Source: a virus (Duplodnaviria > Caudoviricetes). From it: a DNA stretch of 64,000 nt. Position 1 is the stretch's first letter. Each line of letters begins with the position of its first letter. The position numbers and the translations under genes are program-made. The stretch is from the IMG/VR virus record IMGVR_UViG_3300008259_002461; one strand, given 5' to 3'. Below are positions 16,294 to 61,283 of the stretch, piece after piece. The notes under the pieces are model-generated. The model was not told where the DNA came from, did not search any database, and saw only the letters and a program-made list of their open reading frames with translations.

Positions 16294-16641
16294 ATGGACG
16301 ATCGTTTAGAAAAAGCACTTGAATTTTCAAATTTTATGACTACGCTGAATAATCAGCGCAGAGTCATTCGTGAACAATTTTTAGAAAATTGTATACATTA
16401 TCTTAATGGCGGTAAATTTTCAGTTACTAGAGAACTGATCAATTTTTGCAGTTTAATGCAAAGTCGAGGTCACGCTAATATTGTTCTTATAGATGACAAC
16501 GATGCTCCGGTTGAAGTATCTGATCTAGAAAAATTTTTAGATGACATAACTGACATTTATTTTACTAACTCAAATGAATACCTTAATAAGTACAACGAAA
16601 TCAAAAAAAATAGAACAGTAAAGGGACTTGTTAATTTATGA
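16294..16641 (+). CDS. Hypothetical protein
   Basis: 115 aa, strong AGGAGG SD, ATGA overlap with the next gene. Confidence 0.75.
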   Translation: MDDRLEKALEFSNFMTTLNNQRRVIREQFLENCIHYLNGGKFSVTRELINFCSLMQSRGHANIVLIDDNDAPVEVSDLEKFLDDITDIYFTNSNEYLNKYNEIKKNRTVKGLVNL

Positions 16642-17498
16642 CGAGGGGAGTATTACTGTTTGCTCTTAATAATTCTACAATTGATTATATTAAACAAGCA
16701 ATCTATTGTGCAAAAAAAATTAAGAAACATTTAGGCATTCCTGTAGCTCTTGCAACAGATAATCCTGACTATCTAAAAAGTCAATTTCCGTATTATGAAA
16801 AATACATACAACATATAATCCCGTTAGATTTTTATACAACCACTCAAACTCGAAGGTTTCGTGACGGTACAATGAGCAAGCGTGATCTAGAATGGAAGAA
16901 TCATAATAGATCAAGTGCATACAATATAACGCCGTTTGACGAAACTATTGTTATGGATACTGATTTTATCATAGGTAACAATTTGCTTTTAAATTGTTTT
17001 GGTACCGACGAAGAGTTTTTCATATATAGAAATGTTGAAGATTTAAATCAAGATAGGCCTGACGGTCACGAATTTAATAAAATTAGTGACAGAAGTATTG
17101 ATATGTATTGGGCTACTGTTTTTTATTTTAAAAAAACAGAGTTTATGCAAAGTTTTTTTGAATTACTAGATCACATTAAAGAAAATTGGCATTTCTATAG
17201 ATTAATATATCAAATTCCGTTTAAATTGTTTCGTAATGATTATACGTTTAGTATAGCAATTCATATGCTAAATGGGTTTCAGCGTACTAGCTGGCCTAAA
17301 GCATTACCTGGAAAATTATGGTTTACTACTGACGCTGACGTATTAATAAAAATGGAAGATGAGAGTTATACATTTTTATTAGATAAAAAAGAGTGGGTAG
17401 GGCATTATACCGCCGGATACATTAAAGATACTAATATTCATATCATGAATAAGTTTAGCCTTAATCGTGCAATAGATGAGGCCTTGACAAATGAATAA
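16638..17498 (+). CDS. Glycosyltransferase, GT-A fold (GT8-like)
   Basis: TPFDETIVMDTDF (DxD), WATVFYF, RNDYTFSIAIH motifs. Confidence 0.65.
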   Translation: MTRGVLLFALNNSTIDYIKQAIYCAKKIKKHLGIPVALATDNPDYLKSQFPYYEKYIQHIIPLDFYTTTQTRRFRDGTMSKRDLEWKNHNRSSAYNITPFDETIVMDTDFIIGNNLLLNCFGTDEEFFIYRNVEDLNQDRPDGHEFNKISDRSIDMYWATVFYFKKTEFMQSFFELLDHIKENWHFYRLIYQIPFKLFRNDYTFSIAIHMLNGFQRTSWPKALPGKLWFTTDADVLIKMEDESYTFLLDKKEWVGHYTAGYIKDTNIHIMNKFSLNRAIDEALTNE

Positions 17499-18312
17499 AG
17501 GATTTTGTTTACTTGCACAAAATAATGAAACTACTGATTATGTAAAACAGGCATATGCTTTAGCATTGAGTCTTCACAAGTATAACAAAGATCAAAAAAT
17601 TTCGTTAATTACAAACGACACAGTTCCAACAGAATACAAAAATGTCTTTGATCAAATACTTCCAATTCCGTGGGACGATAGTGCAAAAGATGCACAATGG
17701 AAAATACAGAATCGTTGGAAGGTATATCATGCTAGTCCCTACGACGAAACAATTGTCTTAGAAGCAGACATGTTAATACTAACTGACATTACACATTGGT
17801 GGCAAGAACTAGGCAAGCGAGATTTATTTTTTGTAAGTAATGTCCGCACATATCGAGACGAATTAGTAACTTCTGCTTATTATAGAAAAACTTTTATTGC
17901 TAATAAACTTCCTAATCTTTATAGTGCCTGTCATTATTTTAAAAAGGGAGATGTTGCTAAGGAGTTTTATAATCTAGTTGAAATGATTACAAATAATTGG
18001 CAATTATTCTATGGTAAATTTGCGTCAGAAGAATATCAAAAATGGTGTTCAATGGATGTTAGCTGTGCTCTTGCAAGTAAAATATTAGGTAACGAAACAG
18101 AAATAACTGATCCTAATAGTTTTATTACCTTTACGCATATGAAACCTCATGTGCAAGGATGGAGACAAACTCCAGAGCAATGGACTAAAGTTATTGGAAA
18201 ATATTATAGACCTGATGGTACATTAATTCTGGGTAATTATGTTCAAAAAGGTTTATTACATTATGTGGAAGACGAGTTTCTAACAGATAATATTATTGAG
18301 AAATTAATATAA
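17491..18312 (+). CDS. Glycosyltransferase, GT-A fold (paralogue of 16638)
   Basis: SPYDETIVLEADML (ExD variant), MDVSCALA, FTHMK motifs. Confidence 0.6.
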   Translation: MNKGFCLLAQNNETTDYVKQAYALALSLHKYNKDQKISLITNDTVPTEYKNVFDQILPIPWDDSAKDAQWKIQNRWKVYHASPYDETIVLEADMLILTDITHWWQELGKRDLFFVSNVRTYRDELVTSAYYRKTFIANKLPNLYSACHYFKKGDVAKEFYNLVEMITNNWQLFYGKFASEEYQKWCSMDVSCALASKILGNETEITDPNSFITFTHMKPHVQGWRQTPEQWTKVIGKYYRPDGTLILGNYVQKGLLHYVEDEFLTDNIIEKLI

Positions 18313-18325
18313 AAGGAAAATAATA

Positions 18326-19243
18326 ATGAAAATTTTAATGACTGGAACAAGCGGCTTTATAGGTCAACATTTAGAACCGTTGTTAAAAGAACAACACGAG
18401 ATTTATTCTTTAAAAAGCGACTTACTAGATTTTGATGCAGTTACAAAAGAAGTTTTAGACTTTCAGCCTGACATTATTGTACACCTTGCCGCACGTACAG
18501 AAGTAGAAAAAAGTTTTTACGAACAAATAACATTTAGTCAAATTAATTATGTAGGTAGTGTCAATTTAATTGAAACTGCAACAAAAATTCCTAATCTTAA
18601 AAACTTCGTGTTTGCAAGTACTATGGAAGTGTATGGTTGGCAACCTATTAGTGATATTGTCCAATCTGGTAGAGTTCCGGAAATATTTGAAGCTTTTGAC
18701 GAAAACACACCGCCCAATCCTAATGCGCCTTATGCTGTGGCTAAGTATGGAGTTGAAAAATATTTAGAATATGCACATCGTTGTTTAGAACTACCATTTA
18801 CTGCTATTAGACAAACAAACTGTTATGGCCGCAAGGATAATGAATTTTTTGTTACTGAACAAATTATTAGTCAGATGCTGGCTAATCCGTATGAAGCAGA
18901 GTTTGGATATGCAGAGCCATATCGTAACTTTATCTTTATCGATGACATGCTAAGTGCTTGGACTACTATTATCAATAATCCTGCACTAGTAAACACAGGA
19001 AAAATCTTAACTATTGGTCCAGATAATCCAATTAAGATTAGAGAATATGCAACTATAATTGCAAAGAAACTTAATTGGGATGGTAAAATACATTGGCATC
19101 GCAAACTACACCGTCCAGGAGAAATTTATTGGTTGAATAGTAATCATAATTTACTTACCAAGCTAACCGGGTGGACACCTAAAGTAAGTTTAAGTGACGG
19201 TCTTGACAAAACTATTGAAATTTGGAAAGAAAAATTAAAATGA
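18326..19243 (+). CDS. NAD-dependent nucleotide-sugar epimerase/dehydratase (extended SDR)
   Basis: TGTSGFIG Rossmann motif, VHLAA, STMEVYG, YAVAK (YxxxK), RNFIFIDD, WTPKVSLSDGL. Confidence 0.9.
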   Translation: MKILMTGTSGFIGQHLEPLLKEQHEIYSLKSDLLDFDAVTKEVLDFQPDIIVHLAARTEVEKSFYEQITFSQINYVGSVNLIETATKIPNLKNFVFASTMEVYGWQPISDIVQSGRVPEIFEAFDENTPPNPNAPYAVAKYGVEKYLEYAHRCLELPFTAIRQTNCYGRKDNEFFVTEQIISQMLANPYEAEFGYAEPYRNFIFIDDMLSAWTTIINNPALVNTGKILTIGPDNPIKIREYATIIAKKLNWDGKIHWHRKLHRPGEIYWLNSNHNLLTKLTGWTPKVSLSDGLDKTIEIWKEKLK

Positions 19244-19818
19244 AATGGTATTTTAATTTTAAAGATCCTGGAGGCGAGATATGGAAAATAACCAATGAGC
19301 TTGACGAGTCAACTCCGTATATAGAAGTAGAAGCCGAACTTTATAAAGAGTTTTCAACTGAACAAAAGCGAATGCAAGACTACATTATTGTTCCTACTGG
19401 CAAGACAGATTTAAAATATGAATTGCAATTGAAACATCAAGATCTATTAACATTTGACGTAGATACAAGCGTTCATCAAATTCAAAAAGTTGATAATGTT
19501 AATACTAATAATGCAGTTGTAATCGAACAAGATGTTAAACAGGGAGTTTGGACAATCAGTATGACCGAACAACTACGAGCGTTATTAACTCAGACTGCAT
19601 ATTATAAAGATAAAACTCAGCTGATATATGTTACTGATCAAGACGACCCAAATATTTTACTAGACACAATAGAAGTAAAGTTGTATAATATACTATTCGA
19701 TAAATCGTTTGTGCTGCCTAATCAATTAGTAAAAGTTGCTCAACGATTAAATGTAAGTTTGTATTGTGGTAAGATATTTGAAAATTATTATCATTTGGTA
19801 AAAAATTATGAAAATTAA
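19240..19818 (+). CDS. Hypothetical protein
   Basis: Start refined to ATG 19240 (ATGA overlap with the epimerase stop); no recognisable motif. Confidence 0.65.
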   Translation: MKWYFNFKDPGGEIWKITNELDESTPYIEVEAELYKEFSTEQKRMQDYIIVPTGKTDLKYELQLKHQDLLTFDVDTSVHQIQKVDNVNTNNAVVIEQDVKQGVWTISMTEQLRALLTQTAYYKDKTQLIYVTDQDDPNILLDTIEVKLYNILFDKSFVLPNQLVKVAQRLNVSLYCGKIFENYYHLVKNYEN

Positions 19819-20701
19819 AGTAGCGGAACAGGACATTATTTTCCTTAGTTATGACGAACCTAATGCTGAAAAAAATTATGCTGACCTATGTGCAAAAGTT
19901 CCTTGGGCAAAAAGAGTTCATGGAGTTAAGGGCAGCGACGCCGCACACAAAGCATGTGCCGCACTAAGCGAAACAGAATACTTTGTTACTGTAGATGCTG
20001 ATAATATAATTGATCCAAAATTTCTTGACATTGAAGTAGACTTAGCAGAATTAGGTCTCACTACTGAGCATGTGTTTAGTTGGTGCGGAAAAGTTCACGT
20101 CAACGGCCTTATGTATGGCAATGGTGGTTTAAAAATGTGGACACGTAAATTTGTTAATAATATGCGTACACACGAAAATTCAGCAGTTGACGACGAAAAG
20201 GGAAAAGTAGAATTTTGTTTTGACGAAAAGTATTATCAGTTCAACGACAGTTATTCAGAAAGTTTTACTAATGCAACACCTTTTCAAGCCTGGCGAGCAG
20301 GATTCCGCGAAGGTGTTAAAATGAGCCTCAACCAAGGCACTAAAACTACTGATATAAAAAAGGTGTGGTGGCAAAATTATCAACGATTACTTATATGGTG
20401 CAATATTGGTGTAGACGTTGATAACGGCATTTGGAGTACAATAGGTGCTCGAGAAGGTTGTTACATGACTAATTGTACTGACTGGGATTATGCACAGGTG
20501 CGCGACTTTGAATATTTAACTGAGTATTGGAAAGAAAAGGGATACGGTCCTACAACAGATACTTCTGATTATTTTAATTGGTTAGGTACTGAACTTAAAC
20601 ACAAGTGCGGTTTAGAAGTTTCCAATATTGATAGTGACGGTTCAAAATTTTTCAAGACGGTGTATCAAAACACGCCAAGAATAATTAAAAGGGCAAAATG
20701 A
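19808..20701 (+). CDS. Glycosyltransferase-like protein, GT-A (paralogue of 29603)
   Basis: DIIFLSYDEP..., FVTVDADN (DxD), AWRAGFREGVK. Confidence 0.55.
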   Translation: MKIKVAEQDIIFLSYDEPNAEKNYADLCAKVPWAKRVHGVKGSDAAHKACAALSETEYFVTVDADNIIDPKFLDIEVDLAELGLTTEHVFSWCGKVHVNGLMYGNGGLKMWTRKFVNNMRTHENSAVDDEKGKVEFCFDEKYYQFNDSYSESFTNATPFQAWRAGFREGVKMSLNQGTKTTDIKKVWWQNYQRLLIWCNIGVDVDNGIWSTIGAREGCYMTNCTDWDYAQVRDFEYLTEYWKEKGYGPTTDTSDYFNWLGTELKHKCGLEVSNIDSDGSKFFKTVYQNTPRIIKRAK

Positions 20702-22080
20702 GCAACGAGCAAAAAATACAAATACTCAAAGATAAACGAGATAAAATTAACTCAGTAAGTTGTAGTTTTTGCACAGCTAAATGGTTACAAACAACTTTAT
20801 ATCTGCAAAACGGTTACAATCACAGTTGCCATCATCCTGCTCCTCATAAGATTCCTCTCGAAGAAGTACTAGCAGATCCTGCGGCATTGCATAACAGTAA
20901 ATTTAAAAAAAGCCAACGTGAACTGATGCTCAAAGGCGAGCGACCTAGTGAGTGTGATTATTGTTGGAACATAGAAGATTTAAATAAAGATTATTTTAGC
21001 GATAGGCATTATAAAACATCGGATTACTGGGCATGGGATAAATTTGATCAAATTGCTAACAGCGACCCTAATGATAATGTTTATCCTAGTTATTTAGAAA
21101 TTAGTTTTTCCAATGCATGTAATTTTGCGTGTATTTACTGTAGTCCTGAAATTTCATCTAAATGGATGGAAGATATACAACAGAACGGGTCTTACCCAGT
21201 TAAGAATGGAGCTCATCATTTAGGCTGGTTAAAACAAGTGGGACGTTATCCGTATGCACATCACGATGAGAATCCGTATGTAGACGCTTTCTGGAAATGG
21301 TTTCCAGAAACGTTACCGCATTTAAAAGTGTTGCGTATTACAGGCGGTGAACCAACTATGAGTAAAGACTTATGGAAATTATTAGATTACTTAATTGAAA
21401 ACCCGCAGCCTGAATTAGAATTAGCTATTAACACTAACATGTGTGTGCCTGATGTATTAATTGAAAAATTAATTAATAAAATTAATAGCTTACGAGGTGT
21501 GATAAAGCGTTTAGATATTTACACTAGTCTTGAAAGCACTGGATCTCAGGCAGAATATGCAAGAGACGGATTAGACATCAGTGTATGGCAGCAGAATGTT
21601 TGTAAAGTATTAGATAATACGCAATCAACAGTGGCTATAATGACCACTGTTAACATATTAAGTTTACCTACCTTTGTAGATTTTATAGAACTAGTAATGC
21701 AGTTACGTAAAGATTACAATACAAACTTTGAACATAATCGAATTCCGCTCAGTATAAATTATCTAAGATGGCCACCACATTTGCAATGCACTCTTTTAGA
21801 TAAAGAAGAAAGACAGCAGTATGCAGATGATATCTATGTAGCTTGTGAAAAATGGCTGAAATATTATAGCTTAGAAAAGTATGCTCGAATCTATTTAGAA
21901 GAATGGGATCAAATACAAAGATTTTGTGATTACTTACGCACAGCAGAACCAGCAGTAGAACACAGACAGGACTTTGTAAGATACATACAAGAGTATAATT
22001 TTAGAAGAAACAAATCGTTTACTAAGATATTTCCTGAATTCAAAAACTTATTAAAGGAATGGGATGCCCAAGAAGCCTGA
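20698..22080 (+). CDS. Radical SAM enzyme with N-terminal twitch-like domain (#1)
   Basis: CNFACIYC, ITGGEP; N-terminal FCTAKW...SCHH...CDYC. Confidence 0.9.
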   Translation: MSNEQKIQILKDKRDKINSVSCSFCTAKWLQTTLYLQNGYNHSCHHPAPHKIPLEEVLADPAALHNSKFKKSQRELMLKGERPSECDYCWNIEDLNKDYFSDRHYKTSDYWAWDKFDQIANSDPNDNVYPSYLEISFSNACNFACIYCSPEISSKWMEDIQQNGSYPVKNGAHHLGWLKQVGRYPYAHHDENPYVDAFWKWFPETLPHLKVLRITGGEPTMSKDLWKLLDYLIENPQPELELAINTNMCVPDVLIEKLINKINSLRGVIKRLDIYTSLESTGSQAEYARDGLDISVWQQNVCKVLDNTQSTVAIMTTVNILSLPTFVDFIELVMQLRKDYNTNFEHNRIPLSINYLRWPPHLQCTLLDKEERQQYADDIYVACEKWLKYYSLEKYARIYLEEWDQIQRFCDYLRTAEPAVEHRQDFVRYIQEYNFRRNKSFTKIFPEFKNLLKEWDAQEA

Positions 22081-23512
22081 AGAAGATTTAAAGCAATATA
22101 GAGAACGTGTTCTAGACACTAAGAGCACCAGCTTCTGCGGAGCAAAATGGTATAATGCTACTACATGGCTAGGTAGTGGTACCACAGCAAGTTGCCATCA
22201 TCCTCCAGCACATAAAATTCCAATAGAGGAAATTAAACGTAATTACACTGCTATTCATAATACTGAACATAAAAAAGAAATGCGTCGAATGATGCAGTCT
22301 GGCGAACGCCCTCGCGAGTGTGAGTACTGTTGGAAAATGGAAGACATGGGCAAAGATGCTGTTAGTGATCGAACATTTAAAAGTATCATTTATACTGATG
22401 AAGAACTACAACAGGCGTTTGATGCAGACATAAACGAAAATACTAATTTAAAAACTTTTGAAATTGCATTTGATAGGGTATGTAATCTTGCCTGTTCATA
22501 TTGTAATGCTAGTTTCTCAACTACATGGGCAAAGGATATTAAAAACAACGGTCCTTATATTAATCTTGTAAGTGACGGCGCAGGCGCATTTCATCACGAT
22601 GGATCTTGGGCACAGCCTTACAAAGACGATGAAGATAATCCCTATGTACAAGCATTTTGGAAATGGTGGGATAACGGACTATCAGAAAGTCTACAAGAGT
22701 TACGAATCACAGGCGGCGAACCTCTAATGAGTGGTAACACATGGAAATTATTTGATTGGTTTGAAGCGCAAAACAGTGATATGAGATTTGCTATTAACAG
22801 TAACTTAATTGCAAAGTCTGATATTATAGATAAGTTAATTGCTAAATCAAAAAATATTAAACACTTTGATTTGTACACAAGTTGCGAAGCAGTAGGCGAT
22901 CAAGCAGAATACATACGTGATGGTCTAGATTATCAACTATGGAAAACAAATCTAAAAAGAATTCTTACAGAAGCAAACTATAAAGGTGTACACATAATGA
23001 TGACTATTAATAGTTTATCTTTGTTTAGTATTACTGAATTTCTTGACGAAATGTACCAGCTAAAAGAAATGACACAAAGTAGAACTCCTACTGTTAGTTT
23101 AAATCTGTTAAGATTTCCTAGTTTTCAAAGTCCGTTGGCACTACCTAATCATATTAAAGATCATTGCCATAAAAAGCTGTCAACATGGTATGCGCAAAAT
23201 AAAGACCTACCAGGTTGGCACGAATTTGAACGTGCAAGTATTGAAAGATTAATTGATTATCTTGTTACAGTAGATGCACCTCATCGCAGAACAAGTAATC
23301 CTATTACACTGTGGAGAGACTTTAAAACTTTTTATCAGCAGTACGATCAGCGCAGATCAAAATCCATATATGTATTTCCTAAAATTTTAACAGATTGGAT
23401 TGATACTATACCTGATACAGACATAGCAATAAAAGAGTTAGCAGACAAAGAAGGCTGGGTGTTAACACCTGACTCAAGGAACATTGATGATCCTATTGCG
23501 ACCTACAATTAA
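22064..23512 (+). CDS. Radical SAM enzyme with N-terminal twitch-like domain (#2)
   Basis: CNLACSYC, ITGGEP; N-terminal FCGAKW...SCHH...CEYC; close paralogue of #1. Confidence 0.9.
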   Translation: MPKKPEEDLKQYRERVLDTKSTSFCGAKWYNATTWLGSGTTASCHHPPAHKIPIEEIKRNYTAIHNTEHKKEMRRMMQSGERPRECEYCWKMEDMGKDAVSDRTFKSIIYTDEELQQAFDADINENTNLKTFEIAFDRVCNLACSYCNASFSTTWAKDIKNNGPYINLVSDGAGAFHHDGSWAQPYKDDEDNPYVQAFWKWWDNGLSESLQELRITGGEPLMSGNTWKLFDWFEAQNSDMRFAINSNLIAKSDIIDKLIAKSKNIKHFDLYTSCEAVGDQAEYIRDGLDYQLWKTNLKRILTEANYKGVHIMMTINSLSLFSITEFLDEMYQLKEMTQSRTPTVSLNLLRFPSFQSPLALPNHIKDHCHKKLSTWYAQNKDLPGWHEFERASIERLIDYLVTVDAPHRRTSNPITLWRDFKTFYQQYDQRRSKSIYVFPKILTDWIDTIPDTDIAIKELADKEGWVLTPDSRNIDDPIATYN

Positions 23513-29587: not shown

Positions 29588-29596
29588 TAGTATAAT
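29568..29596 (+). promoter_or_regulatory. Sigma70-type promoter, perfect consensus
   Basis: TTGACA 29568-29573, 17 bp spacer, TATAAT 29591-29596; ATG 29603 lies 7 nt after the -10 box. Confidence 0.85.
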
Positions 29597-29602
29597 AATA
29601 AT

Positions 29603-41133: not shown

Positions 41134-41134
41134 T

Positions 41135-47209: not shown

Positions 47210-47217
47210 GATAAATA
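47210..47217 (+). promoter_or_regulatory. T4-late-like motif GATAAATA
   Basis: In a divergent gap, ends 4 nt before ATG 47222. Confidence 0.5.
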
Positions 47218-47221
47218 TTTT

Positions 47222-53360: not shown

Positions 53361-53387
53361 GTCATTAACCTAGTATTTTATATCTTG

Positions 53388-53399
53388 TATTTATAAATA
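53388..53399. promoter_or_regulatory. Palindromic bidirectional T4 late consensus TATTTATAAATA
   Basis: Perfect 12-bp palindrome giving TATAAATA on both strands, between divergent genes 53360(-) and 53404(+). Confidence 0.7.
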
Positions 53400-53403
53400 G
53401 TTT

Positions 53404-54237: not shown

Positions 54238-55442
54238 TTATGAAACAAGGAAGATTAATAAACTTTGAATTACTGTGGGATACTGACCTAAGCGTCAATG
54301 TTGTATTACCAAAACTACTTGAATTAGAATTTCAAGAAGCAGTAGCTGACGGAGTAACTACCATTTTTGGAATGTTTTTAATGGAGGGAATTTATCCGCA
54401 TGATTGTCATAATCAACAACTGTTTTTAGAAATTAAAAAAATAGCTGACAAATACAATTTAGAAGTTATTCTATTGTCAGGCCTTGGAGAAAGTTTTAAC
54501 AATCAGTATAGTATAGAAAATGGTAGTATTTTAAACAATCTTCCATTTGAGGTAATATACTCATCATATCCTTTAAGAGTATGTTACAACATCATTAATA
54601 ATATTCCTAGAAAATCAAAAACTATCAATAATAAGTTTTTATTCTTAGGTGGAATTCCTACTAGATTAAATAGAATTTATTTATTAAGTAAGTTGTATGA
54701 AAACAATCTTTTAATAAATGGTAAATGGTCATTTTTTATTCCGTTATCCCAAGAAGATAAAAATTATTGCAGAAATTTATTATCACATTATTCAGATGAA
54801 GAGTACGAAACTTTTTTAAAAAACTGTACTAGCTCAATAGATGAAAAATATCAAGAAATGGCTAACTTTTTTCAAGACTATGCACCGTACGAAGAAGGCG
54901 ATCTTGAAAAGTGGGGCGAAATAGTTCATACTGATTTTTGGAAAAATCCTATATACATAGATCCTGAAGTTTACGATGAAACTTCGTTAAGTATAATTTC
55001 TGAAGGTCCAAATTATTGGTCGCCTGATTATAAATTTATTACAGAAAAAACATGGCGGACAATAATTTATAAGCATCCTTTTATATTTGCAGGCCCGCCT
55101 GAACAGTTTAGATATATTAAACAAATGGGATTTGAAACATTTGAAAAATATATGCTTATTCAAAATTATGCACAGGTGGAAGATGAAAAAGAAAGAATTG
55201 AATTGATTGTTAAAAATGTAGAACATTTTTTAAAACACCAAACTTATCATCAAAAAGAAATACAACAAGATATTGAACATAATTTTAACTTATTCTTAAA
55301 ACTAGCCAATGATCAAAATTGTCTACTAACATCTTTAAAATCAAAATACAATATTCCTGATGCTGAGTTTTCAAAATTTTTTAGTACAACCGGCTATGAA
55401 AATTTGATTAGGCCCGTTGCCGACCTCAAAAAATTAGGCTAG
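54234..55442 (+). CDS. Putative glycosyltransferase (GT10/fucosyltransferase-like motif)
   Basis: SIISEG...FITEKTW...HPFIFAG...GFETF resembles the GT10 ENS...YITEK region; near-duplicate of 56406. Confidence 0.45.
   Translation: MIMKQGRLINFELLWDTDLSVNVVLPKLLELEFQEAVADGVTTIFGMFLMEGIYPHDCHNQQLFLEIKKIADKYNLEVILLSGLGESFNNQYSIENGSILNNLPFEVIYSSYPLRVCYNIINNIPRKSKTINNKFLFLGGIPTRLNRIYLLSKLYENNLLINGKWSFFIPLSQEDKNYCRNLLSHYSDEEYETFLKNCTSSIDEKYQEMANFFQDYAPYEEGDLEKWGEIVHTDFWKNPIYIDPEVYDETSLSIISEGPNYWSPDYKFITEKTWRTIIYKHPFIFAGPPEQFRYIKQMGFETFEKYMLIQNYAQVEDEKERIELIVKNVEHFLKHQTYHQKEIQQDIEHNFNLFLKLANDQNCLLTSLKSKYNIPDAEFSKFFSTTGYENLIRPVADLKKLG
54999..55120 (+). repeat. Degenerate direct duplication, copy 1 (copy 2 at +2160 bp)
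   Basis: Identical blocks TCTGAAGGTCCAAATT, ATTACAGAAAAAACATGGCG, CATCCTTTTATATTTGC and TTTAGATATATTAA recur colinearly at 57159-57280. Confidence 0.8.
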
Positions 55443-55474
55443 CATCATATTCGTAGTTATCAATAGTGTATGGT

Positions 55475-55482
55475 TATAAATA
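55475..55482 (+). promoter_or_regulatory. T4 late consensus TATAAATA
   Basis: Exact match in the 68-bp gap before ATG 55511. Confidence 0.6.
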
Positions 55483-55510
55483 AGTTTATGACTATATCTG
55501 TTAGACTATC

Positions 55511-56425
55511 ATGAAAAATAATTACGATAAACGGCATCTTCCTTTTGGACATTCTACAGCTATACAAGACAAAGAAACATTATCTTTTATCAATAATTGT
55601 AGTATCTCAACACAAACATTAAACGATCAAACAATTAACGAACAATTCCTTAGCAAGTATGTAGAATGGATATTGACTACAACAAATAACAAAGTAACTG
55701 GTATTGATCAGTATCCATTCAAATGTTTTTCGCAAGGGACATCTGAAGCGTTTGAAAAATTTTATATGAATTATTCTCATAGAAGATTTCGATGTTTTAA
55801 AGGCGAGTATGTTTATCATAAATTAGCTTGGAGAGATGATAGATTTAATTGGAAATACTTAGAGGATGATGCGCTTGATGCCAATGACGTAGTAATAATT
55901 AGTCAACCTTTTTCTGATACAGGCGATCAGCATCCTTTACTTAATGATATTTTAGATCAATGTGACAAACTAAATATTCCTGTAGTACTTGATTGTTGCT
56001 ACTTTGGTATTTGTAGTAATATAAATTTTGATTTTACAAGACCTTGTATAAAAGAAATCATCTTTAGTTTATCTAAAACTTTTCCAGTAGCTCATATTAG
56101 AATAGGTATGCGTCTTTCAAGGATTGATAATGACGATTTGTTATTTGTGTATAACAAAAGTGGCTACACAAATAGATTAGCAGCAAGTATAGGACTTAAT
56201 CTTATTAATCATTTTGATTCTGACTACATAGTTAATAAGTATAAAAATAAACAAATTGAAATCTGTAAAAAATTAAATGTAACTCCTAGCAATACTGTGT
56301 TGTTTGGAATAGGCGGCTCTGAATGGCAGGAATACAATCGTGATAGAGCTACTAACAGATTAGGATTACATAATTTTTTACACATGGAAGATACAGAGTG
56401 CTTAGATGAATATGTCAAAATCTAA
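55511..56425 (+). CDS. PLP-dependent aminotransferase-like enzyme (class I/II fold)
   Basis: QGTSEAF, VVLDCCY, FSLSKTFPVAHIRIG matching the S.SK...RIG PLP-lysine motif. Confidence 0.8.
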   Translation: MKNNYDKRHLPFGHSTAIQDKETLSFINNCSISTQTLNDQTINEQFLSKYVEWILTTTNNKVTGIDQYPFKCFSQGTSEAFEKFYMNYSHRRFRCFKGEYVYHKLAWRDDRFNWKYLEDDALDANDVVIISQPFSDTGDQHPLLNDILDQCDKLNIPVVLDCCYFGICSNINFDFTRPCIKEIIFSLSKTFPVAHIRIGMRLSRIDNDDLLFVYNKSGYTNRLAASIGLNLINHFDSDYIVNKYKNKQIEICKKLNVTPSNTVLFGIGGSEWQEYNRDRATNRLGLHNFLHMEDTECLDEYVKI

Positions 56426-57593
56426 AATTATAAATTTTGAATGGATGTGTGATCACAATCATTACACCCATGAACAATTTGATAAAATTAAAACTGATTT
56501 AATTAAAAAAGACATTGATCAAGCCATAGATGAAAATGTTGATACTGTTGTAGGGCTTTATCTAATGGATGGGTTTTTACAACCTAAGTATAGATACAAA
56601 GAGTTTATTTTGCACCTAAACGAAATAAAAGATTATGCTTACAATGCTGGAATTAAAAAAATAATTCTAATAAGTGGCCATGGCGAAACATTAGATAATT
56701 GTCCCTTTGAATACCTGTTTTTAGATTTTAATCTTAGATTATTAATTAATAGCTATCCTGATCTAAATGTATTACCTAAATTCAATCCTGAAAATACAAA
56801 GTTTCTCTTTTTAACTGGCATGCCAAATAGACCTAATCGTATAGGTCTATTGAGCAAGTACTATGATAAAGATTTATTAGACACTGCTGAGTGGAGTTTT
56901 TTTGGCCCATGGACACCTATGGATCAATCTTGGTGTAGAGAATATCTTAAACATTATAGTGATGAACACTACAATACATTTTTAATTAATTGTGAAAGAT
57001 CTTTTGATAATAGATATGAAACGTGTAAGCCATTCTATGGATCGTATACTTCAACGGAAAATGCACCGCTATGGTATGATGTAGTTAATATTGACTGGGT
57101 TCAATTACCCAGTCATATTGATTCTAAAGTATATAGCGATACACTTTTTAGTGTTATATCTGAAGGTCCAAATTTTTGGTCTGAAGATTGGAGTTTCATT
57201 ACAGAAAAAACATGGCGAACTTTTTTACATCGTCATCCTTTTATATTTGCCGGGCACCCTGATCAATTTAGATATATTAAGAAACTTGGATTTAAAACAT
57301 TTGAAGAATATTTGTTAATCAAAGATTACGCCTATATTGAAGATGAAAATGAAAGACTAGATGCTGTAGTCAAAAATACAGAATACTTATTAAAAAATAT
57401 AAAAAATAATTTAGATGCTATAGAAAAAGACGTAGAATATAATTATCAAATGTATTTTAATCATGTAAACAATCAGGATAAAATTTTTAAATTCTTAAAG
57501 CACGATTTAAATGTTTCGTCAGATGATATCCAGCCATATGCTAATATCAAAGGTTATCCGTATCTCATTAGGAGAATACCTGATGGATTCTAA
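56406..57593 (+). CDS. Putative glycosyltransferase (GT10-like motif; paralogue of 54234)
   Basis: SVISEG...FITEKTW...HPFIFAG...GFKTF; KFLFLTGMPNRPNRI. Confidence 0.45.
   Translation: MNMSKSKIINFEWMCDHNHYTHEQFDKIKTDLIKKDIDQAIDENVDTVVGLYLMDGFLQPKYRYKEFILHLNEIKDYAYNAGIKKIILISGHGETLDNCPFEYLFLDFNLRLLINSYPDLNVLPKFNPENTKFLFLTGMPNRPNRIGLLSKYYDKDLLDTAEWSFFGPWTPMDQSWCREYLKHYSDEHYNTFLINCERSFDNRYETCKPFYGSYTSTENAPLWYDVVNIDWVQLPSHIDSKVYSDTLFSVISEGPNFWSEDWSFITEKTWRTFLHRHPFIFAGHPDQFRYIKKLGFKTFEEYLLIKDYAYIEDENERLDAVVKNTEYLLKNIKNNLDAIEKDVEYNYQMYFNHVNNQDKIFKFLKHDLNVSSDDIQPYANIKGYPYLIRRIPDGF
57159..57280 (+). repeat. Degenerate direct duplication, copy 2
   Basis: Colinear with 54999-55120. Confidence 0.8.
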
Positions 57594-58515
57594 ATGTGCA
57601 GCTTTCTGGAAACATACTAATGTTCGTAGCGATAACAAAATATTTCCCTGTTGTAGATTTAAGAATCCTGTAGATAATTTCAACGGCGATTTAATTCATA
57701 TATTAGAGTCCAGTGCATATAAAGAACTTAGAAAAAAAAGTTTAAACGGTGAATTTATCCAAGGTTGCGAAAAATGCTATTACGAAGATGCCAACGGTAG
57801 GCAAAGTCTTCGACAACGATTAAACAAAGAATATACTACTGACACAGTTGAATTAGAATTTTTAGAAATAGGGTTTGACAATATATGTAATTTAACCTGT
57901 GACGGATGCTGGAGTGATTTTAGTTCCGAGTGGAGTAAAAAACTTAACCCTACTGCAAACAAGATTACTCACTATCGTTCAGTTGATGAGATTGTTAAAG
58001 TTCCGTCTAGTATTAAAAAAATACTCTTTTTAGGCGGTGAACCTTTAATGACCAACCGGCATGAAAAGTTTTTAAAACTAATTGAAAATCCAGCAGCAGT
58101 TGAAATAATTTACAACACTAACGGAATGTTTTTGTTAAAAGAAGAATTTATTAATTTTTTACATCAGTTTAAATCGGTAAAATTTACGTTAAGTATTGAT
58201 GGGTACAAAGATCTAAATAACAAAGTTAGATCTGGAAGTAAGTGGGAAGATATTTTAAGTTTTATAGAACAGATATCTAAATCTAACTTTGATCTAGAAG
58301 TGAATACAGTGTTACATTTAAATAACTGGCACGGAATAAAGGAGCTTGAATCCTTTATACAACAATTAGGAGTACCGTGGATAGTAAATGTTTTAACATA
58401 TCCTACACATTTAGATATTTCTAATTTTGAACAAAAGGAACAAATTATTAATTTGATTAGCGAAACAAACATTCCAAATAAAACTTATGTCATTAACCAT
58501 CTATTACATAATTAA
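57583..58515 (+). CDS. Radical SAM enzyme with N-terminal twitch domain (#15)
   Basis: Start refined to ATG 57583 (AGGAG SD); KCAAFW...PCC...CEKC, CNLTCDGC, LGGEP, NTNG. Confidence 0.9.
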   Translation: MDSKCAAFWKHTNVRSDNKIFPCCRFKNPVDNFNGDLIHILESSAYKELRKKSLNGEFIQGCEKCYYEDANGRQSLRQRLNKEYTTDTVELEFLEIGFDNICNLTCDGCWSDFSSEWSKKLNPTANKITHYRSVDEIVKVPSSIKKILFLGGEPLMTNRHEKFLKLIENPAAVEIIYNTNGMFLLKEEFINFLHQFKSVKFTLSIDGYKDLNNKVRSGSKWEDILSFIEQISKSNFDLEVNTVLHLNNWHGIKELESFIQQLGVPWIVNVLTYPTHLDISNFEQKEQIINLISETNIPNKTYVINHLLHN

Positions 58516-58530
58516 TAAAAGGAGTTATTT

Positions 58531-59151
58531 ATGAGTTCAGAATTTTATCAGTATTTTGATTATCCAAATTGGTTAGAACATCAAAAAAAATTGTTAGCAT
58601 ATAGACAATTAAAGATGGCTGACATCGTAACTGACAATCAATCATGGGCTGCGTTAAACTATGATGAATTTTCTATGGATTTAAAAGATGTTATTGACGA
58701 TTATGCACAGCTTGGTCTATACATAAAACAGTTAATTTTTATATCTTTCCCCCCTACTGATTTAAATTCTACAGACATGAATGATCCAAAAACAATTTAT
58801 ATACATGTTGACAGTAAGGATGACGATGAACATTTGTTAAAGGAATCAGCTCCTACATTGTTTTCTCCAAGATATGTATTTAATATTCCATTAATAAATT
58901 GTGAAAACAGTACTACGTTTTTTTATGATTTTATAGATCCAAATAAACACACAAAAGACACTCATGTATATTTTGGAGGTTGTGTCGATTACAGTAATGT
59001 AGTTGAAGTGGATAAATTTACTCTTAACAAACCTGCATTTCTAAAAGTTAGTGTTCCCCATGCAGTGCATAATCCTACTGATAGTTTAAGAATTGTTTGT
59101 AGTATGCGTGTTGATGATAGTAGTCCATTACTAAAAAGGCTTTTCAAATGA
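58531..59151 (+). CDS. Putative Fe(II)/2OG oxygenase (cupin-type)
   Basis: AGGAG SD; IHVD...NIPL...PHAVHN...RIVCS. Confidence 0.6.
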   Translation: MSSEFYQYFDYPNWLEHQKKLLAYRQLKMADIVTDNQSWAALNYDEFSMDLKDVIDDYAQLGLYIKQLIFISFPPTDLNSTDMNDPKTIYIHVDSKDDDEHLLKESAPTLFSPRYVFNIPLINCENSTTFFYDFIDPNKHTKDTHVYFGGCVDYSNVVEVDKFTLNKPAFLKVSVPHAVHNPTDSLRIVCSMRVDDSSPLLKRLFK

Positions 59152-59723
59152 CATCAACTATAAGCTGTAAACGGTATATTGAATATAACAAGATTATTAG
59201 TGCTGTAGATTCAATGGCTAAAAAAGTTGCAGAATTTAGAGAAACTATGTCAAGTGATATGTACGACTTGACTCAAGTTGACCCGGCTCCTGATTTAACA
59301 GACATACATCCTAGAGATAGAAAAAATGTTAAAATTCTTTGCGGTGCTTTGCCCTTTGATGGAAAACCAAACTTAGGCAAACTATTAAAAGAAGAATCAG
59401 ATATACTAACAAATTTAAAAGGATATTCTGCTGGGTTTGTTTTCTTTATGACTCCAAATTCAATCTTACCATTACATGTACACGGCGAATATGTAGCGAA
59501 AGATTCAAACGATACAATAGGAGTTTGGAATGCCTGTTTTGGAATTACAGTACCGTCGACAGATTCTAACATGGTAGGTATAGAAGTAAACGGTGAAGTT
59601 TATTCTCATGGTCATAATGTAGATGTAACATTTGACCCACAAACACCGCATCAAGCATGGAACCACACTAACGAGTGGTGGACTATGTTAATCTTAAATA
59701 TTGATAAGAGATTTTTTATTTAA
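59148..59723 (+). CDS. AspH-like/cupin oxygenase
   Basis: MTPNSILPLHVH...FDPQTPHQAWN. Confidence 0.6.
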   Translation: MTSTISCKRYIEYNKIISAVDSMAKKVAEFRETMSSDMYDLTQVDPAPDLTDIHPRDRKNVKILCGALPFDGKPNLGKLLKEESDILTNLKGYSAGFVFFMTPNSILPLHVHGEYVAKDSNDTIGVWNACFGITVPSTDSNMVGIEVNGEVYSHGHNVDVTFDPQTPHQAWNHTNEWWTMLILNIDKRFFI

Positions 59724-59733
59724 AGGAAATATT

Positions 59734-60792
59734 TTGAAAATATCAACAAATAATCATTGGGATCCATTAGAAGAAATAATTGTAGGCATAGCTGATCATG
59801 CACGAGTGCCTACAGTGGACAGAAGCACCATGAATATGAGCTACAGTAACTATAGTATGGATAGTGTTAAACCTTTAGAAGGAGCATATCCTCAATGGTT
59901 AATTGATGAAGCTAACGAAGACTTGGAAGGATTGGCTACCGCGCTAAGAAAAGCCGGAGTTAAAGTACATAGACCAAAGCCGTTAGATCACAGTAAACAG
60001 TTTAGTACACCAGAGTGGCAAACTACTGGTTGGTATACTTGGTGTCCTAGAGACTTACTGTTGCCGTTAAAAAATCTAATTATTGAAACGCCTAGTGGGT
60101 GTCGTTCTAGATATTTTGAAACTAGGGCATATCACGATATAATGTTAGAAGCAGTTCGAGATGGAGTTGAATGGATAGCAGCACCTAAACCTATTCTATT
60201 AGATGAAGGCTATCAATTTGAAGATATACAAGGAAAGCCAAGTTTATTAAATTTAGAACCTATATTTGATGCTCCTAACTGTGTGCGTTTGGGTAAAGAT
60301 ATTTTATTTCAAATTTCAAACACTGGTAATCATTTAGGAATGCAATGGTTAAAAAATGTGCTTGAACCTAGAGGTTATAGAATACATGCGGCAGAGCATA
60401 TTTACAGTTTTGCTCATATGGATAGTACCATCGTTCCTTTAAGTCCGGGGAAAGTTTTGTTAAATAGTACTAGAGTCACGCCTGAAAATTGTCCTAAGAT
60501 ATTTGAAAAATGGGATAAGATATGGTTTAAAGATGTAAATATTAATCCTACTACAGAAACCGGACCAGGCAGTATCAGTCCGTGCAGTCCGTATATAGGA
60601 ATGAATATTTTAAGTATAAACCCTAGTACAGTAATAGTAGGCGAAGATCAGATTAATTTAACAAGAGTTTTAGAAAAACAAGGATTTGATGTAGTACATG
60701 TAAAAATGCGGCACGCTCAAACACTTAGTGGCGGACTTCATTGTACTACTTTAGATTTAAGAAGAACAGGATCGTTAGAGGATTATACATGA
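59734..60792 (+). CDS. Amidinotransferase (glycine/inosamine-phosphate amidinotransferase family)
   Basis: Start refined to TTG 59734 (AAGGA SD); WDPLEEIIVG, CPRD, FDAPN, HMDST, GGLHCTT (Cys-His-Asp triad motifs). Confidence 0.9.
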   Translation: MKISTNNHWDPLEEIIVGIADHARVPTVDRSTMNMSYSNYSMDSVKPLEGAYPQWLIDEANEDLEGLATALRKAGVKVHRPKPLDHSKQFSTPEWQTTGWYTWCPRDLLLPLKNLIIETPSGCRSRYFETRAYHDIMLEAVRDGVEWIAAPKPILLDEGYQFEDIQGKPSLLNLEPIFDAPNCVRLGKDILFQISNTGNHLGMQWLKNVLEPRGYRIHAAEHIYSFAHMDSTIVPLSPGKVLLNSTRVTPENCPKIFEKWDKIWFKDVNINPTTETGPGSISPCSPYIGMNILSINPSTVIVGEDQINLTRVLEKQGFDVVHVKMRHAQTLSGGLHCTTLDLRRTGSLEDYT

Positions 60793-61283
60793 TTGAGTTT
60801 GTAACAAATATAAAAGATTTTTGGTCAACTGATTTAGAAAAATTTGTCTTTCCAGTTATGTCACCTCTTAACACTAATGTAAGAGATTATTGGAATCATC
60901 CTAATTTTCAAAATGCCAAACCTCTCTTGCAAGCATTTGACAATGATTTACCAGAGTATTGGAATAAATTTCTAATTGAGCTAGGTACAACAGAAGGTAC
61001 AGTATCTTGGACTAACCTAGTACCGGGTCAAGTCCTACCTGTTCATACTGATGAGTTTTATAAACTAAGAACCAAGTACAATGTTGATATAGAAAAATGT
61101 AGAAGATATTTAATTTTTCTAAATGATTGGGTACTTGGACATTCTGTTGATTTTGAAGAAAAGACTATAACAAGATGGAAGTGTGGAGATGTTTGGTTAT
61201 TTGATCATCGTTCATTCCACTGCGCCGCTAATGCTTCTACAGTAGATTTTATAACCTGTCAGGTTAATACTATTACGATTTAA
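60789..61283 (+). CDS. Fe(II)/2OG oxygenase, AspH-like
   Basis: Start refined to ATG 60789; VPGQVLPVHTD...FHCAANAS...CQV. Confidence 0.7.
   Translation: MIEFVTNIKDFWSTDLEKFVFPVMSPLNTNVRDYWNHPNFQNAKPLLQAFDNDLPEYWNKFLIELGTTEGTVSWTNLVPGQVLPVHTDEFYKLRTKYNVDIEKCRRYLIFLNDWVLGHSVDFEEKTITRWKCGDVWLFDHRSFHCAANASTVDFITCQVNTITI

What the first reader, a model, noticed from the sequence alone, without database searches (positions are those of the whole stretch)
16294..61283. A ~45 kb phage-encoded tailoring-enzyme super-cluster enclosed between tail-fibre genes
Seen: about 50 contiguous, mostly stop/start-overlapping genes, nearly all small-molecule, glycan or protein tailoring enzymes (15 radical SAM, 10 Fe/2OG-cupin, ~7 GT-like, 4 SGNH, epimerase, 2 SDR, 2 MTase, QueC-like, PLP aminotransferase, amidinotransferase, GNAT-like, 2 kinase-fold). 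No replication, nucleotide-supply or lysis genes are mixed in, and fibre genes flank both sides (8691-14185 and 61280-62425). Established: T4-like cyanophages carry GT/epimerase/2OG-oxygenase islands near fibre genes, and phage DNA hypermodification uses radical SAM, PLP, kinase and acyltransferase enzymes. Inference: this is a dedicated phage biosynthetic system building a heavily decorated glycan or modification on virion proteins, the host envelope or phage DNA; I know of no characterised pathway with this composition, but cannot check whether similar islands are already reported.
Basis: partly seen in the sequence, partly recalled or inferred. Interest (0 to 1): 0.9.

Follow-up and report, generated by a model that had tools for sequence, protein, structure and literature searches.

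The report
Stacked sugar-tailoring cassettes beside phage fibres
A freshwater jumbo phage carries, between its tail-fibre genes, 45 kb of enzyme genes (15 radical SAM enzymes plus glycosyltransferases and oxygenases) made of three reusable cassettes that most likely build unusual sugars for its fibre proteins; nobody has tested what such islands do.

Summary
Window 16294-61283 has 52 ORFs, and 38 of 45 same-strand junctions overlap. All 15 radical SAM (rSAM) genes keep CxxxCxxC, and 7 pass NCBIfam's N_Twi_rSAM cut-off.

Other classes:
- Four nucleotide-sugar-transferase-like proteins (two GT8/glycogenin-like by profile, two GT-A by fold).
- Four SGNH-motif proteins.
- About 10 cupin/2OG proteins.
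- One each of epimerase, methyltransferase and amidinotransferase.

Independent assemblies reproduce the gene order, so it is not a chimera.

It is not one pathway. Related phage contigs carry module A (16294-34209), B (about 34166-50409) or C (about 50406-61283) separately at the same site, and one relative has none.

Module A always follows a fibre-like protein family (14213/15131). T4-type late-promoter motifs precede the fibre genes and several island operons. No island protein has a membrane segment. In bacteria, the same rSAM family sits beside glycan genes.

Best reading (about 0.4): late, cytoplasmic sugar-tailoring cassettes that glycosylate virion fibre proteins. DNA, host-envelope and direct protein modification remain open.

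Many-rSAM or GT-rich islands are already noted, but unexplained, in Campylobacter phages, pelagimyophages, a marine T4-like genome and cyanophage S-SCSM2R. I class it as a new variant of a known kind. This scan had already flagged the same stretch in overlapping windows.

The parts
1..8052 (+). Giant structural protein (over 2683 aa, open at the window start) heading the fibre region
   Evidence: ORF. Homologues precede the same fibre genes in L189-L203 and L159. Function not tested.
8691..14185 (+). Three fibre paralogues (8691-10763, 10763-12646, 12683-14185) with a shared N-terminus and divergent C-termini
   Evidence: Phage tail Collar domain in 8691. N-terminal 260-330 aa are 27-33% identical between the three. 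ATAAATA lies 27 nt upstream of 12683.
14213..16243 (+). Two paralogous Ser/Thr/Gly-rich fibre-like proteins (14213-15118, 15131-16243); candidate acceptors of module A
   Evidence: 33% identical to each other. In 15 of 15 related loci with room, this family (2-3 tandem copies) is directly followed by 16294-16638-17491-19808-20698. Absent from L159, which has no island. TATAAATA at 14181.
16294..34209 (+). Module A. Contents: a 115-aa conserved protein; 2 GT8-like (16638, 17491); epimerase (18326); 2 GT-A (19808, 29603); 4 N-twitch rSAM (20698, 22064, 24721, 32815); 3 further rSAM (28583, 30258, 31237); SGNH-like (25847); the unknown-fold 26769 family; MTase-like 32213; unknowns 19222, 23484, 27808
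   Evidence: Pfam and NCBIfam. Glycogenin profile match. AF2 model with pLDDT 85.6 and GT-A matches. Collinear at 60-85% aa identity in L001-L011 and L016, with reduced versions in L012-L015, L022 and L024.
34166..50409 (.). Module B (approximate borders). Contents: rSAM 34166(-), 35242(-), 37026(-); N-twitch rSAM 37906(-) and 49234(+); SGNH-like 36358(-), 39143(-), 48037(+); PP-loop ATPase 39736(-); cupins 40390, 41805, 42373, 47222, 48768; CSD-2OG fusion 42938; short SDR-like 43966 and 44403; kinase-like pair 41135 and 45520(-); unknown 44976(-); MTase 46205(-)
   Evidence: Pfam; motifs. 19 of 48 related contigs carry this block directly next to the border fibre. ATAAATA lies 5 nt upstream of 47222.
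50406..61283 (.). Module C (approximate borders). Contents: unknown 50406(-); rSAM 51626(-) and 53404(+); N-twitch rSAM 57511; Asp/Arg-hydroxylase cupins 52614(-) and 59148; cupins 58531 and 60741; unknown paralogues 54234/56406; aminotransferase-like 55511; amidinotransferase 59701
   Evidence: Pfam. 6 of 48 related contigs carry this block at the border, in L120, L121 and L126 together with an epimerase 72-73% identical to 18326. Cyanophage S-SCSM2R shares the 53404-like rSAM (39%), the 60741-like cupin and the amidinotransferase (34%) among five GTs. Bidirectional TATAAATA at 53388/53392 and TATAAATA at 55475.
61280..62425 (-). Fibre gene with an Mtd_N domain closing the island
   Evidence: Pfam Mtd_N 2.3e-9. 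Homologues in 73 of 80 border loci. ATAAATA lies 31 nt upstream.
62479..63959 (-). Conserved right-border genes (62479, 62789, 63681)
   Evidence: Found together in 77-80 of 80 related IMG/VR loci, whatever lies beyond them.

Best explanation
The 45 kb island is a stack of three recurrent gene cassettes inserted in the host-recognition (fibre) region of a freshwater jumbo myovirus of the Rak2/GAP32-like branch of the T4 superfamily.

Proposed mechanism:
- The cassettes encode soluble cytoplasmic enzymes made late in infection, together with the fibres.
- The enzymes make and tailor unusual sugars. The tools are an epimerase/dehydratase, aminotransferase-like and amidinotransferase enzymes, a PP-loop ATPase, methyltransferases, SGNH esterases/acyltransferases, about ten Fe/2OG-type cupins and fifteen radical SAM enzymes.
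- GT8-like and GT-A transferases attach the sugars to virion fibre proteins. The 14213/15131 family is the prime candidate acceptor for module A.
- Different cassette combinations would give related phages differently decorated fibres.

Shown here: gene content, intact motifs, modularity, conserved linkage, late-promoter-like motifs, absence of membrane proteins, and glycan contexts of the bacterial homologues.

Inferred only: that the substrates are sugars, that the acceptors are fibre proteins, and that all three cassettes share one kind of target.

For: 2. Linkage. The 14213 family is followed by the start of module A in 15 of 15 loci with room. Both are absent from L159.

3. Timing. 8 of 15 ATAAATA sites in the window lie within 45 nt upstream of starts, namely fibre genes 8074, 12683, 14213 and 62425(-) and island units 47222, 53360(-), 53404 and 55511. 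Across the whole record the figure is 23 of 37.

4. Location of the chemistry. No real transmembrane segment or transporter occurs in 52 island proteins.

5. Bacterial homologues of the N-twitch rSAM family sit in glycan or glycolipid contexts:
- Bacteriovoracaceae: GT1, GT-C (PMT_2), an ABC-2 exporter, pilin-like proteins and a 26769 homologue.
- Oligoflexia: a DegT sugar aminotransferase.
- Chitinophagales: carbamoyltransferase, GDSL, PhyH, MTase and UbiA.
- Paenibacillus: ACP/KS/KR plus GT2.

6. Phage relatives pair the same rSAM trio with GT7+LamG, UDP-glucose dehydrogenase or carbamoyltransferase.

7. Core enzymes of module C sit among five GTs in cyanophage S-SCSM2R, and beside two nucleotide-sugar transferases in CP220.

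8. From established knowledge, not tested here: twitch/SPASM rSAM enzymes such as BtrN, BlsE, DesII and AprD4 act on sugars or aminocyclitols. Virus-encoded GTs glycosylate virion proteins in chloroviruses, mimiviruses and mycobacteriophages.
Against: - No biochemical or proteomic data exist for any of these proteins.
- About a third of the island's proteins have no assignable fold or family.
- The GT-A fold is shared with nucleotidyltransferases such as IspD and MobA.
- The N-twitch rSAM family has no characterised member. One bacterial context (Paenibacillus) is acyl-carrier/polyketide-like rather than purely glycan.
- Late expression and fibre linkage would fit direct protein modification equally well.
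- The promoter assignment rests on a motif, not on RNA data. No RNA run holds the sequence.
- Module A has no promoter motif of its own, so co-transcription with the fibre genes is assumed.
Confidence: 0.4

Rival explanations
1. Direct post-translational modification of fibre or other virion proteins without glycans as the main product. The rSAM enzymes would make cross-links, epimerise or C-methylate side chains, and the Asp/Asn-hydroxylase-type cupins would hydroxylate residues, hardening or diversifying the fibres.
For: SPASM/twitch rSAM enzymes are best known as peptide and protein maturases, and the secondary NCBIfam hits are to such maturases. Pfam finds Asp_Arg_Hydrox in 52614 and 59148. 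The late-promoter motifs and fibre linkage fit equally well.
Against: Pfam finds no RiPP-recognition (PqqD-like) domain in any of the 15 rSAM proteins. Four transferase-like proteins and sugar-type enzymes (epimerase, amidinotransferase) need another explanation. Bacterial homologues lie in glycan or lipid contexts, not next to precursor peptides.
Confidence: 0.15
2. Remodelling of the host cell envelope (LPS, capsule or S-layer glycan) during infection, for example to block superinfection. This was proposed for glycosyltransferases in the pelagimyophage host-recognition cluster.
For: GT8 enzymes include LPS transferases, and PMC7029224 argues this for SAR11 phages. The bacterial N-twitch rSAM context includes an ABC-2 exporter and a GT-C.
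Against: No initiating phosphoglycosyl transferase, flippase, polymerase, exporter or any membrane protein is present in the island. Late-promoter motifs are odd for exclusion functions, which usually act early. Module A is obligately linked to one phage protein family.
Confidence: 0.13
3. DNA hypermodification. The rSAM, PLP-type, kinase-fold, PP-loop (QueC-like), amidinotransferase and GT enzymes would decorate phage bases to evade restriction.
For: Enzyme classes overlap with thymidine and 7-deazaguanine hypermodification pathways (established knowledge). The PP-loop protein 39736 has a weak QueC-like C-terminus. Homologous amidinotransferase/rSAM clusters occur in Campylobacter phages, a group reported to carry modified guanine (from memory, not checked here).
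Against: The 185 kb record has no Pfam-level TGT/DpdA, QueD or true QueC. Pfam detects no hmU kinase or base-exchange enzyme in the island. The position is inside the fibre module, with late-promoter motifs, and not next to replication genes. The 'kinase' assignment is weak (E 0.07). Only about 52% of the genome is held, so absence is not proof.
Confidence: 0.1
4. There is no common target. The site is a hypervariable dumping ground where unrelated accessory cassettes accumulate, some acting on sugars, some on proteins, and some producing a small molecule or cofactor.
For: Modules A, B and C occur independently. 21 of 48 related contigs hold unrelated content at the same site. GC drops to 27.5-30% in 50-58 kb. 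The Paenibacillus and Chitinophagales contexts look like small-molecule or lipid clusters.
Against: All three modules are built from the same enzyme families (N-twitch rSAM, cupin, SGNH). They are always placed between fibre genes, and B and C carry the same promoter motif. This suggests a shared kind of chemistry and timing.
Confidence: 0.12

Closest known systems
Host-recognition cluster (hypervariable fibre region) of pelagimyophages and T4-like cyanophages (PMC7029224)
   Same: A region of about 35-45 kb downstream of a giant structural protein. It mixes tail-fibre genes with glycosyltransferases and radical SAM cassettes that come and go between close relatives. Function untested.
   Different: This phage is a freshwater Rak2/GAP32-like jumbo phage (MCP 65-70% identical to that group). 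The enzyme load is far larger (15 rSAM, about 10 cupins), and the recurrent modules are defined here.
Radical-SAM-rich Campylobacter phages CP220/CPt10 (PMC2853527) and marine T4-like genome TARA_ERS488813_N000010 (PMC5332604)
   Same: 11-12 rSAM genes per T4-like genome. CP220 has a 5-rSAM module with an amidinotransferase 35% identical to 59701 and two nucleotide-sugar transferases, near baseplate genes.
   Different: Their rSAM genes match the window's only weakly (24-26%), and tblastn found no N-twitch trio there. Those authors proposed host metabolic benefit or Fe-S metabolism, not virion decoration.
Cyanophage S-SCSM2R 'antibiotic synthesis genes' island (PMC12801897)
   Same: Shares the 53404-like rSAM (39%), the 60741-like cupin and the amidinotransferase (34%), embedded among five GTs and 2OG oxygenases, with a halogenase nearby.
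   Different: Much smaller and lacking modules A and B. It was interpreted as antibiotic synthesis without tests.
Virus-encoded virion glycosylation (PBCV-1 A64R capsid glycans, mimivirus fibril glycans, mycobacteriophage capsid/tail glycans)
   Same: Soluble virus-encoded GT-A transferases plus sugar-nucleotide tailoring enzymes acting on structural proteins in the cytoplasm. A64R is the top structural match of the 19808 family.
   Different: Those systems, as far as I know, include no radical SAM enzymes. No glycan has been shown on this phage.
NCBIfam NF033640 N_Twi_rSAM (twitch domain-containing radical SAM protein)
   Same: Seven island proteins score 212-415 bits against a cut-off of 170, with an N-terminal Cys-rich twitch/SPASM-like domain before the CxxxCxxC core.
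   Different: The family has no characterised member that I could find. The phage paralogues are only 21-39% identical to each other and about 27-36% to the bacterial members.

Membership tests
Radical SAM superfamily (PF04055) | CxxxCxxC motif binding the SAM-cleaving [4Fe-4S] cluster, within a partial TIM-barrel domain | tested here: met
   All 15 ORFs have the motif. 13 reach the Pfam cut-off and two are below it (22064 at 20.5 bits, 34166 at 21.4 bits). 22064 passes N_Twi_rSAM and 34166 has a clear SPASM hit.
NF033640 N_Twi_rSAM | Whole-protein score of at least 170 bits | tested here: met
   24721 379, 32815 415, 37906 320, 20698 325, 22064 302, 49234 233, 57511 212 bits. 34166 scores only 54 bits and is not a member.
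NF033640 N_Twi_rSAM | N-terminal Cys-rich twitch/SPASM-like domain ahead of the rSAM core | tested here: met
   Pfam SPASM lies at residues about 7-99, before the core at about 112-153. C26 and C92 are invariant among 8 paralogues. C44, C45, C89 and C92 are invariant among orthologues. Cluster binding is not testable here.
GT8 (glycogenin/LgtC-like retaining glycosyltransferases) | Sequence-profile similarity to GT8 and a conserved acidic motif on the GT-A core | tested here: inconclusive
   The profile of 12 sequences hits glycogenin-1/2 at E 2e-7 to 5e-4, but only over profile positions 16-123. D109, D201 and H268 are invariant. There is no Pfam hit, and activity and donor are unknown.
GT-A fold nucleotide-diphospho-sugar transferases | Rossmann-like GT-A domain with a DxD motif | tested here: met
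RiPP biosynthetic gene cluster | Precursor peptide, RiPP-recognition element on the maturase, and a leader protease or exporter | tested here: not met
   No PqqD/RRE, peptidase or transporter domain and no membrane protein. Short precursor ORFs were not searched systematically.
Bacterial O-antigen/capsule gene cluster | Initiating phosphoglycosyl transferase plus Wzx/Wzy or an ABC exporter | tested here: not met
   No such Pfam families and no transmembrane segments in island proteins.
Phage DNA hypermodification cluster (7-deazaguanine or hmU-derived) | Base-exchange or base-activating enzyme (DpdA/TGT, hmU kinase) with the QueC/D/E or aGPT-Pplase set | tested here: not met
   No TGT, PTPS or true QueC in the 185 kb record. 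39736 gives only 16.7 bits to QueC, below the cut-off of 22. The record is about 52% of the genome, so the rest is untested.
T4-superfamily hypervariable host-recognition island | Variable gene content between conserved structural borders next to fibre genes in related phages | tested here: met
   The border genes are conserved in 80 loci. Of 48 with at least 7 kb beyond the border, contents are module B (19), C (6), A (1), fibres only (1) and other (21).

The most novel reading that the evidence does not exclude
The N-twitch radical SAM family, with the unknown-fold 26769 family as partner, is a new class of glycan- or sugar-modifying radical enzymes. Aquatic jumbo phages would use combinatorial cassettes of them to display chemically unprecedented, radical-tailored glycans on their fibre proteins. 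This would be a virus-encoded glycan code for adsorption or for evasion of host and grazer recognition, with bacterial counterparts on predatory-bacterium surface structures.
Probability: 0.3. Interest if true: 0.85.

Novelty: new variant of a known kind. Interest (0 to 1): 0.62.

Why it matters
Islands rich in radical SAM enzymes, oxygenases and glycosyltransferases next to fibre genes have been reported in several T4-like phage groups for more than fifteen years, with no tested function.

This example is the largest I could find. It resolves into three portable modules, and it ties one module to a specific candidate acceptor protein family. It also links an uncharacterised radical SAM family (N_Twi_rSAM) to glycan contexts in both phages and bacteria. 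Together these turn a vague 'auxiliary genes' observation into testable hypotheses.

If virion glycans tailored by radical chemistry are confirmed, the result would add a new layer to phage host recognition. It would also open a large reservoir of new sugar-modifying enzymes.

Tried and rejected
- Megablast of the island and its flank against 50,697 phage records: no match.
- PHROGs on 20 unknown proteins: nothing informative.
- ESM Atlas on 26769, 14213 and 23484: only virus-specific unnamed clusters, plus a weak GT10 lead for 23484.
- PDB profile searches for the 19808, 26769, 39736 and 41135 families: no significant hit.
- The search for related loci with 8 divergent paralogues failed for lack of conserved stretches. 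With 54234 it found nothing.
- Fe-S assembly genes (IscU, A-type carrier) were sought because a paper linked them to rSAM-rich phages: none in the held record.
- DGR template for the Mtd_N fibre gene: none in the held record.
- Laying metagenome contigs on 30000-49999 to catch natural cassette deletions: only low-confidence joints. It did show identical pieces in an independent study.
- Assembly chimera was considered and rejected.

Full report
**What the genome is.** The window is bases 101339-165338 of a 185,762-bp IMG/VR virus record that CheckV rates about 52% complete. Its major capsid protein is 65-70% identical to those of 340-470 kb jumbo myoviruses: Vibrio phage 2.275.O, Sinorhizobium phage Phosso, Escherichia phage A4, Pectobacterium CBB and Cronobacter GAP32. 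So this is a Rak2/GAP32-like member of the T4 superfamily. The same DNA occurs in lake and other freshwater metagenomes from 16 studies. No cultured phage matches at the DNA level.

**Checking the observation.**
- Fifty-two ORFs tile 16294-61283. Of 45 same-strand junctions, 38 overlap and 6 have gaps of 0-25 nt.
- Pfam finds a radical SAM domain in 15 ORFs, and every one keeps CxxxCxxC.
- Eight of the rSAM proteins are paralogues with a SPASM-like Cys-rich domain at the N-terminus. Seven exceed the curated cut-off of NCBIfam NF033640, 'twitch domain-containing radical SAM protein'.
- Clear Pfam hits: an NAD-dependent epimerase/dehydratase (18326), a cold-shock-domain/2OG-oxygenase fusion (42938), two Asp/Arg-hydroxylase cupins (52614, 59148), a methyltransferase (46205) and an ADI/amidinotransferase-fold protein (59701).
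- Weak hits only: QueC-like (39736), aminotransferase (55511), GDSL (48037) and SDR (43966).
- Paralogy and motifs extend the cupins to about ten and the SGNH-like proteins to four.
- A profile of the 16638/17491 family matches glycogenin (GT8) at E about 2e-7.
- The flanks are fibre genes: a Collar domain in 8691, a shared N-terminus in 10763 and 12683, and Mtd_N in 61280-62425.

The GNAT, 'kinase-fold' and three of the seven GT calls remain unverified.

**Not an assembly artefact.** Related phages carry parts of the island at the same site, so a chimeric assembly was a real concern. The exact proteins 50406-51629(-) and 35242-36333(-) occur in 57 and 50 blocks of the public collection. Independent assemblies show the same gene order across both module junctions. 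These are an ENA contig of 209 kb and JGI contigs of 192, 148, 110 and 78 kb.

**Modularity.** Eleven viral contigs (L001-L011), plus the shorter L016, are collinear with 12683-34209 at 60-85% protein identity.
- A minimal version occurs in L012 and L013. A fibre-like gene is followed by 16294, 16638, 17491, 19808, 29603, 20698, 22064, 24721, 25847 and 26769, and this runs straight into the homologues of 62479/62789/63681.
- The right-border genes are conserved in 80 contigs. Of the 48 with at least 7 kb beyond the border:
  - 19 carry the block 37026-49234 (module B).
  - 6 carry 54234-60741, three of them (L120, L121, L126) with an 18326-like epimerase (module C).
  - 1 carries module A.
  - 21 hold other content.
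  - 1, a 278 kb contig (L159), has the fibre genes directly at the border and no island.
- Each paralogue in the window has orthologues at 50-85% identity in other phages, while paralogues are only 21-39% identical to each other. The duplications are therefore old and the copies have presumably specialised.

The 45 kb 'super-cluster' is thus three portable cassettes stacked at one hypervariable site, not one pathway.

**Link to a specific phage protein family.** The paralogues 14213 and 15131 are Ser/Thr/Gly-rich fibre-like proteins with no known domain. They precede module A in every case. In 15 of 15 loci with room downstream, two or three tandem copies are followed by 16294-16638-17491-19808-20698. 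The island-less contig L159 lacks them. This makes them the best candidate acceptor, though they could also be a structural partner.

**Timing and cellular location.**
- The T4 late-promoter core ATAAATA occurs 15 times in the window on both strands. Eight of these lie within 45 nt upstream of a start codon: fibre genes 8074, 12683, 14213 and 62425(-), and island units 47222, 53360(-), 53404 and 55511.
- Across the whole record, 23 of 37 sites are so placed, several before giant structural genes.
- Module A has no motif of its own. It follows the fibre genes after a 50-nt gap, so co-transcription is assumed rather than shown.
- No island protein has a credible transmembrane segment, and no transporter is present.

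The chemistry is therefore cytoplasmic and, by this motif evidence, late.

**What the radical SAM family does elsewhere.** Homologues at 27-36% identity occur in many bacterial genomes and MAGs: Bdellovibrionota, Bacteroidota, Acidobacteriota, Gammaproteobacteria and Paenibacillus. They are often in arrays of 2-7 copies. The contexts I could annotate are these:
- Bacteriovoracaceae: GT1, GT-C (PMT_2), an ABC-2 exporter pair, two pilin-like proteins, a Peptidase_S74 protein and a homologue of 26769.
- Oligoflexia: a DegT sugar aminotransferase and a methyltransferase with five rSAM genes.
- Chitinophagales: seven rSAM genes with carbamoyltransferase, PhyH, a methyltransferase, UbiA, GDSL and an amine oxidase.
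- Paenibacillus: ACP, two ketosynthases, a ketoreductase, GT2, a thioesterase and a PPTase.

Phage relatives pair the same rSAM trio with GT7+LamG proteins and UDP-glucose dehydrogenase, or with a carbamoyltransferase. These associations point to glycan or glycolipid chemistry rather than peptide maturation. Consistent with that, no RiPP-recognition domain is found in any island rSAM protein.

**The 26769 family.** It has 102 relatives and no Pfam domain. The model is confident (pLDDT 85.3) but has no Foldseek match in the PDB. VIA gives only a borderline cyclophilin-like barrel with a helical insert. Its role is unknown.

**Cultured relatives and literature.**
- The amidinotransferase 59701 is 34-35% identical to genes in cyanophage S-SCSM2R and Campylobacter phage CP220.
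- In S-SCSM2R it sits with a 53404-like rSAM (39%) and a 60741-like cupin among five glycosyltransferases.
- In CP220 it sits with five rSAM genes and two nucleotide-sugar transferases downstream of baseplate genes.
- Ralstonia phage RsoM2USA has a 59% orthologue of 22064, annotated as hypothetical.
- Published genome papers already note 11-12 rSAM genes in CP220/CPt10 (PMC2853527) and 12 in a marine T4-like genome (PMC5332604). They also note glycosyltransferases and rSAM cassettes in the roughly 45 kb host-recognition cluster of pelagimyophages (PMC7029224), and an 'antibiotic synthesis' trio in S-SCSM2R (PMC12801897).
- None of these papers tested a function. My literature searches found no characterisation of the N-twitch family.

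**Interpretation.** I favour (about 0.4) late, cytoplasmic sugar-tailoring cassettes whose products are attached by GT8-like and GT-A enzymes to virion fibre proteins.
- Direct protein modification (0.15) fits the timing and linkage, but not the transferases or the bacterial contexts.
- Host-envelope remodelling (0.13) lacks any membrane machinery and fits late timing poorly.
- DNA hypermodification (0.10) lacks a base-exchange or base-activating enzyme in the held record. Pfam finds no TGT, PTPS or true QueC there. Half the genome is unseen, however.
- A heterogeneous collection with no shared target (0.12) cannot be excluded.

I could not reproduce that with Pfam, so I do not rely on it.

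**Verdict.** The feature is real, large and conserved, with intact catalytic motifs. It is an extreme, modular variant of a kind of island already described but never explained. Its main value lies in three things: the defined modules, the candidate acceptor family, and the glycan link for an uncharacterised radical SAM family.

Noticed in passing
window 42938-43969 (+): Fusion of an N-terminal cold-shock (nucleic-acid-binding) domain with a 2OG-Fe(II) oxygenase domain. The same 343-aa protein is present in independent assemblies. This is an odd pairing for a sugar pathway and may act on RNA or DNA.
   Followed up: partly
window 26769-27815 (+); L205 7482-8360 (-): The protein family has 102 relatives, no Pfam domain and invariant His/Asn/Glu positions. 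The AF2 model is confident (pLDDT 85) but has no Foldseek PDB match. The family co-occurs with N-twitch rSAM genes in phages and in Bacteriovoracaceae.
   Followed up: partly
L106 (Chitinophagales), L205, L206, L027, L040, L048, L077: Bacterial arrays of 4-7 N-twitch radical SAM paralogues within about 17 kb, beside carbamoyltransferase, PhyH, UbiA, GDSL, DegT, GT1 or GT-C genes. These look like uncharacterised cellular counterparts of the phage cassettes.
   Followed up: partly
whole record G000:C1: ATAAATA (T4 late-promoter core): 23 of 37 occurrences lie within 45 nt upstream of an ORF of at least 80 aa on the same strand. One is a bidirectional pair at window 53388/53392.
   Followed up: yes
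window 61280-62425 (-): The fibre gene has an Mtd_N (major tropism determinant) domain, but its 3' end has no template-repeat copy anywhere in the held 185 kb. There is therefore no sign of a diversity-generating retroelement.
   Followed up: yes
L159 (IMGVR_UViG_3300047510_001118, 278 kb contig): A relative in which the border genes abut the fibre genes directly. It has no island, no 14213-family gene and no Mtd_N fibre, so it is a natural island-less comparison genome.
   Followed up: partly
L192-L204: Some related phages carry three tandem copies of the 14213-family fibre-like gene ahead of module A, instead of two.
   Followed up: no
window 50000-58000: GC content falls to 27.5-30%, against 31-37% elsewhere in the window. 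This is consistent with module C having a separate origin.
   Followed up: no
L020 14938-16320 (Ralstonia phage RsoM2USA_202): A cultured 344 kb soil jumbo phage has a single 59%-identical orthologue of the N-twitch rSAM 22064, annotated as hypothetical. It could serve as an experimental handle.
   Followed up: no
L212 (G000:C1:174000-185762): The region downstream of the window holds a phosphoribosyltransferase-domain protein and a second NAD-dependent epimerase.
   Followed up: partly
L209 15090-16517 versus window 29603-31244: In one independent assembly a single 475-aa rSAM gene replaces the separate 227-aa GT-A (29603) and 328-aa rSAM (30258) genes. This may be a fusion or a frameshift variant.
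   Followed up: no
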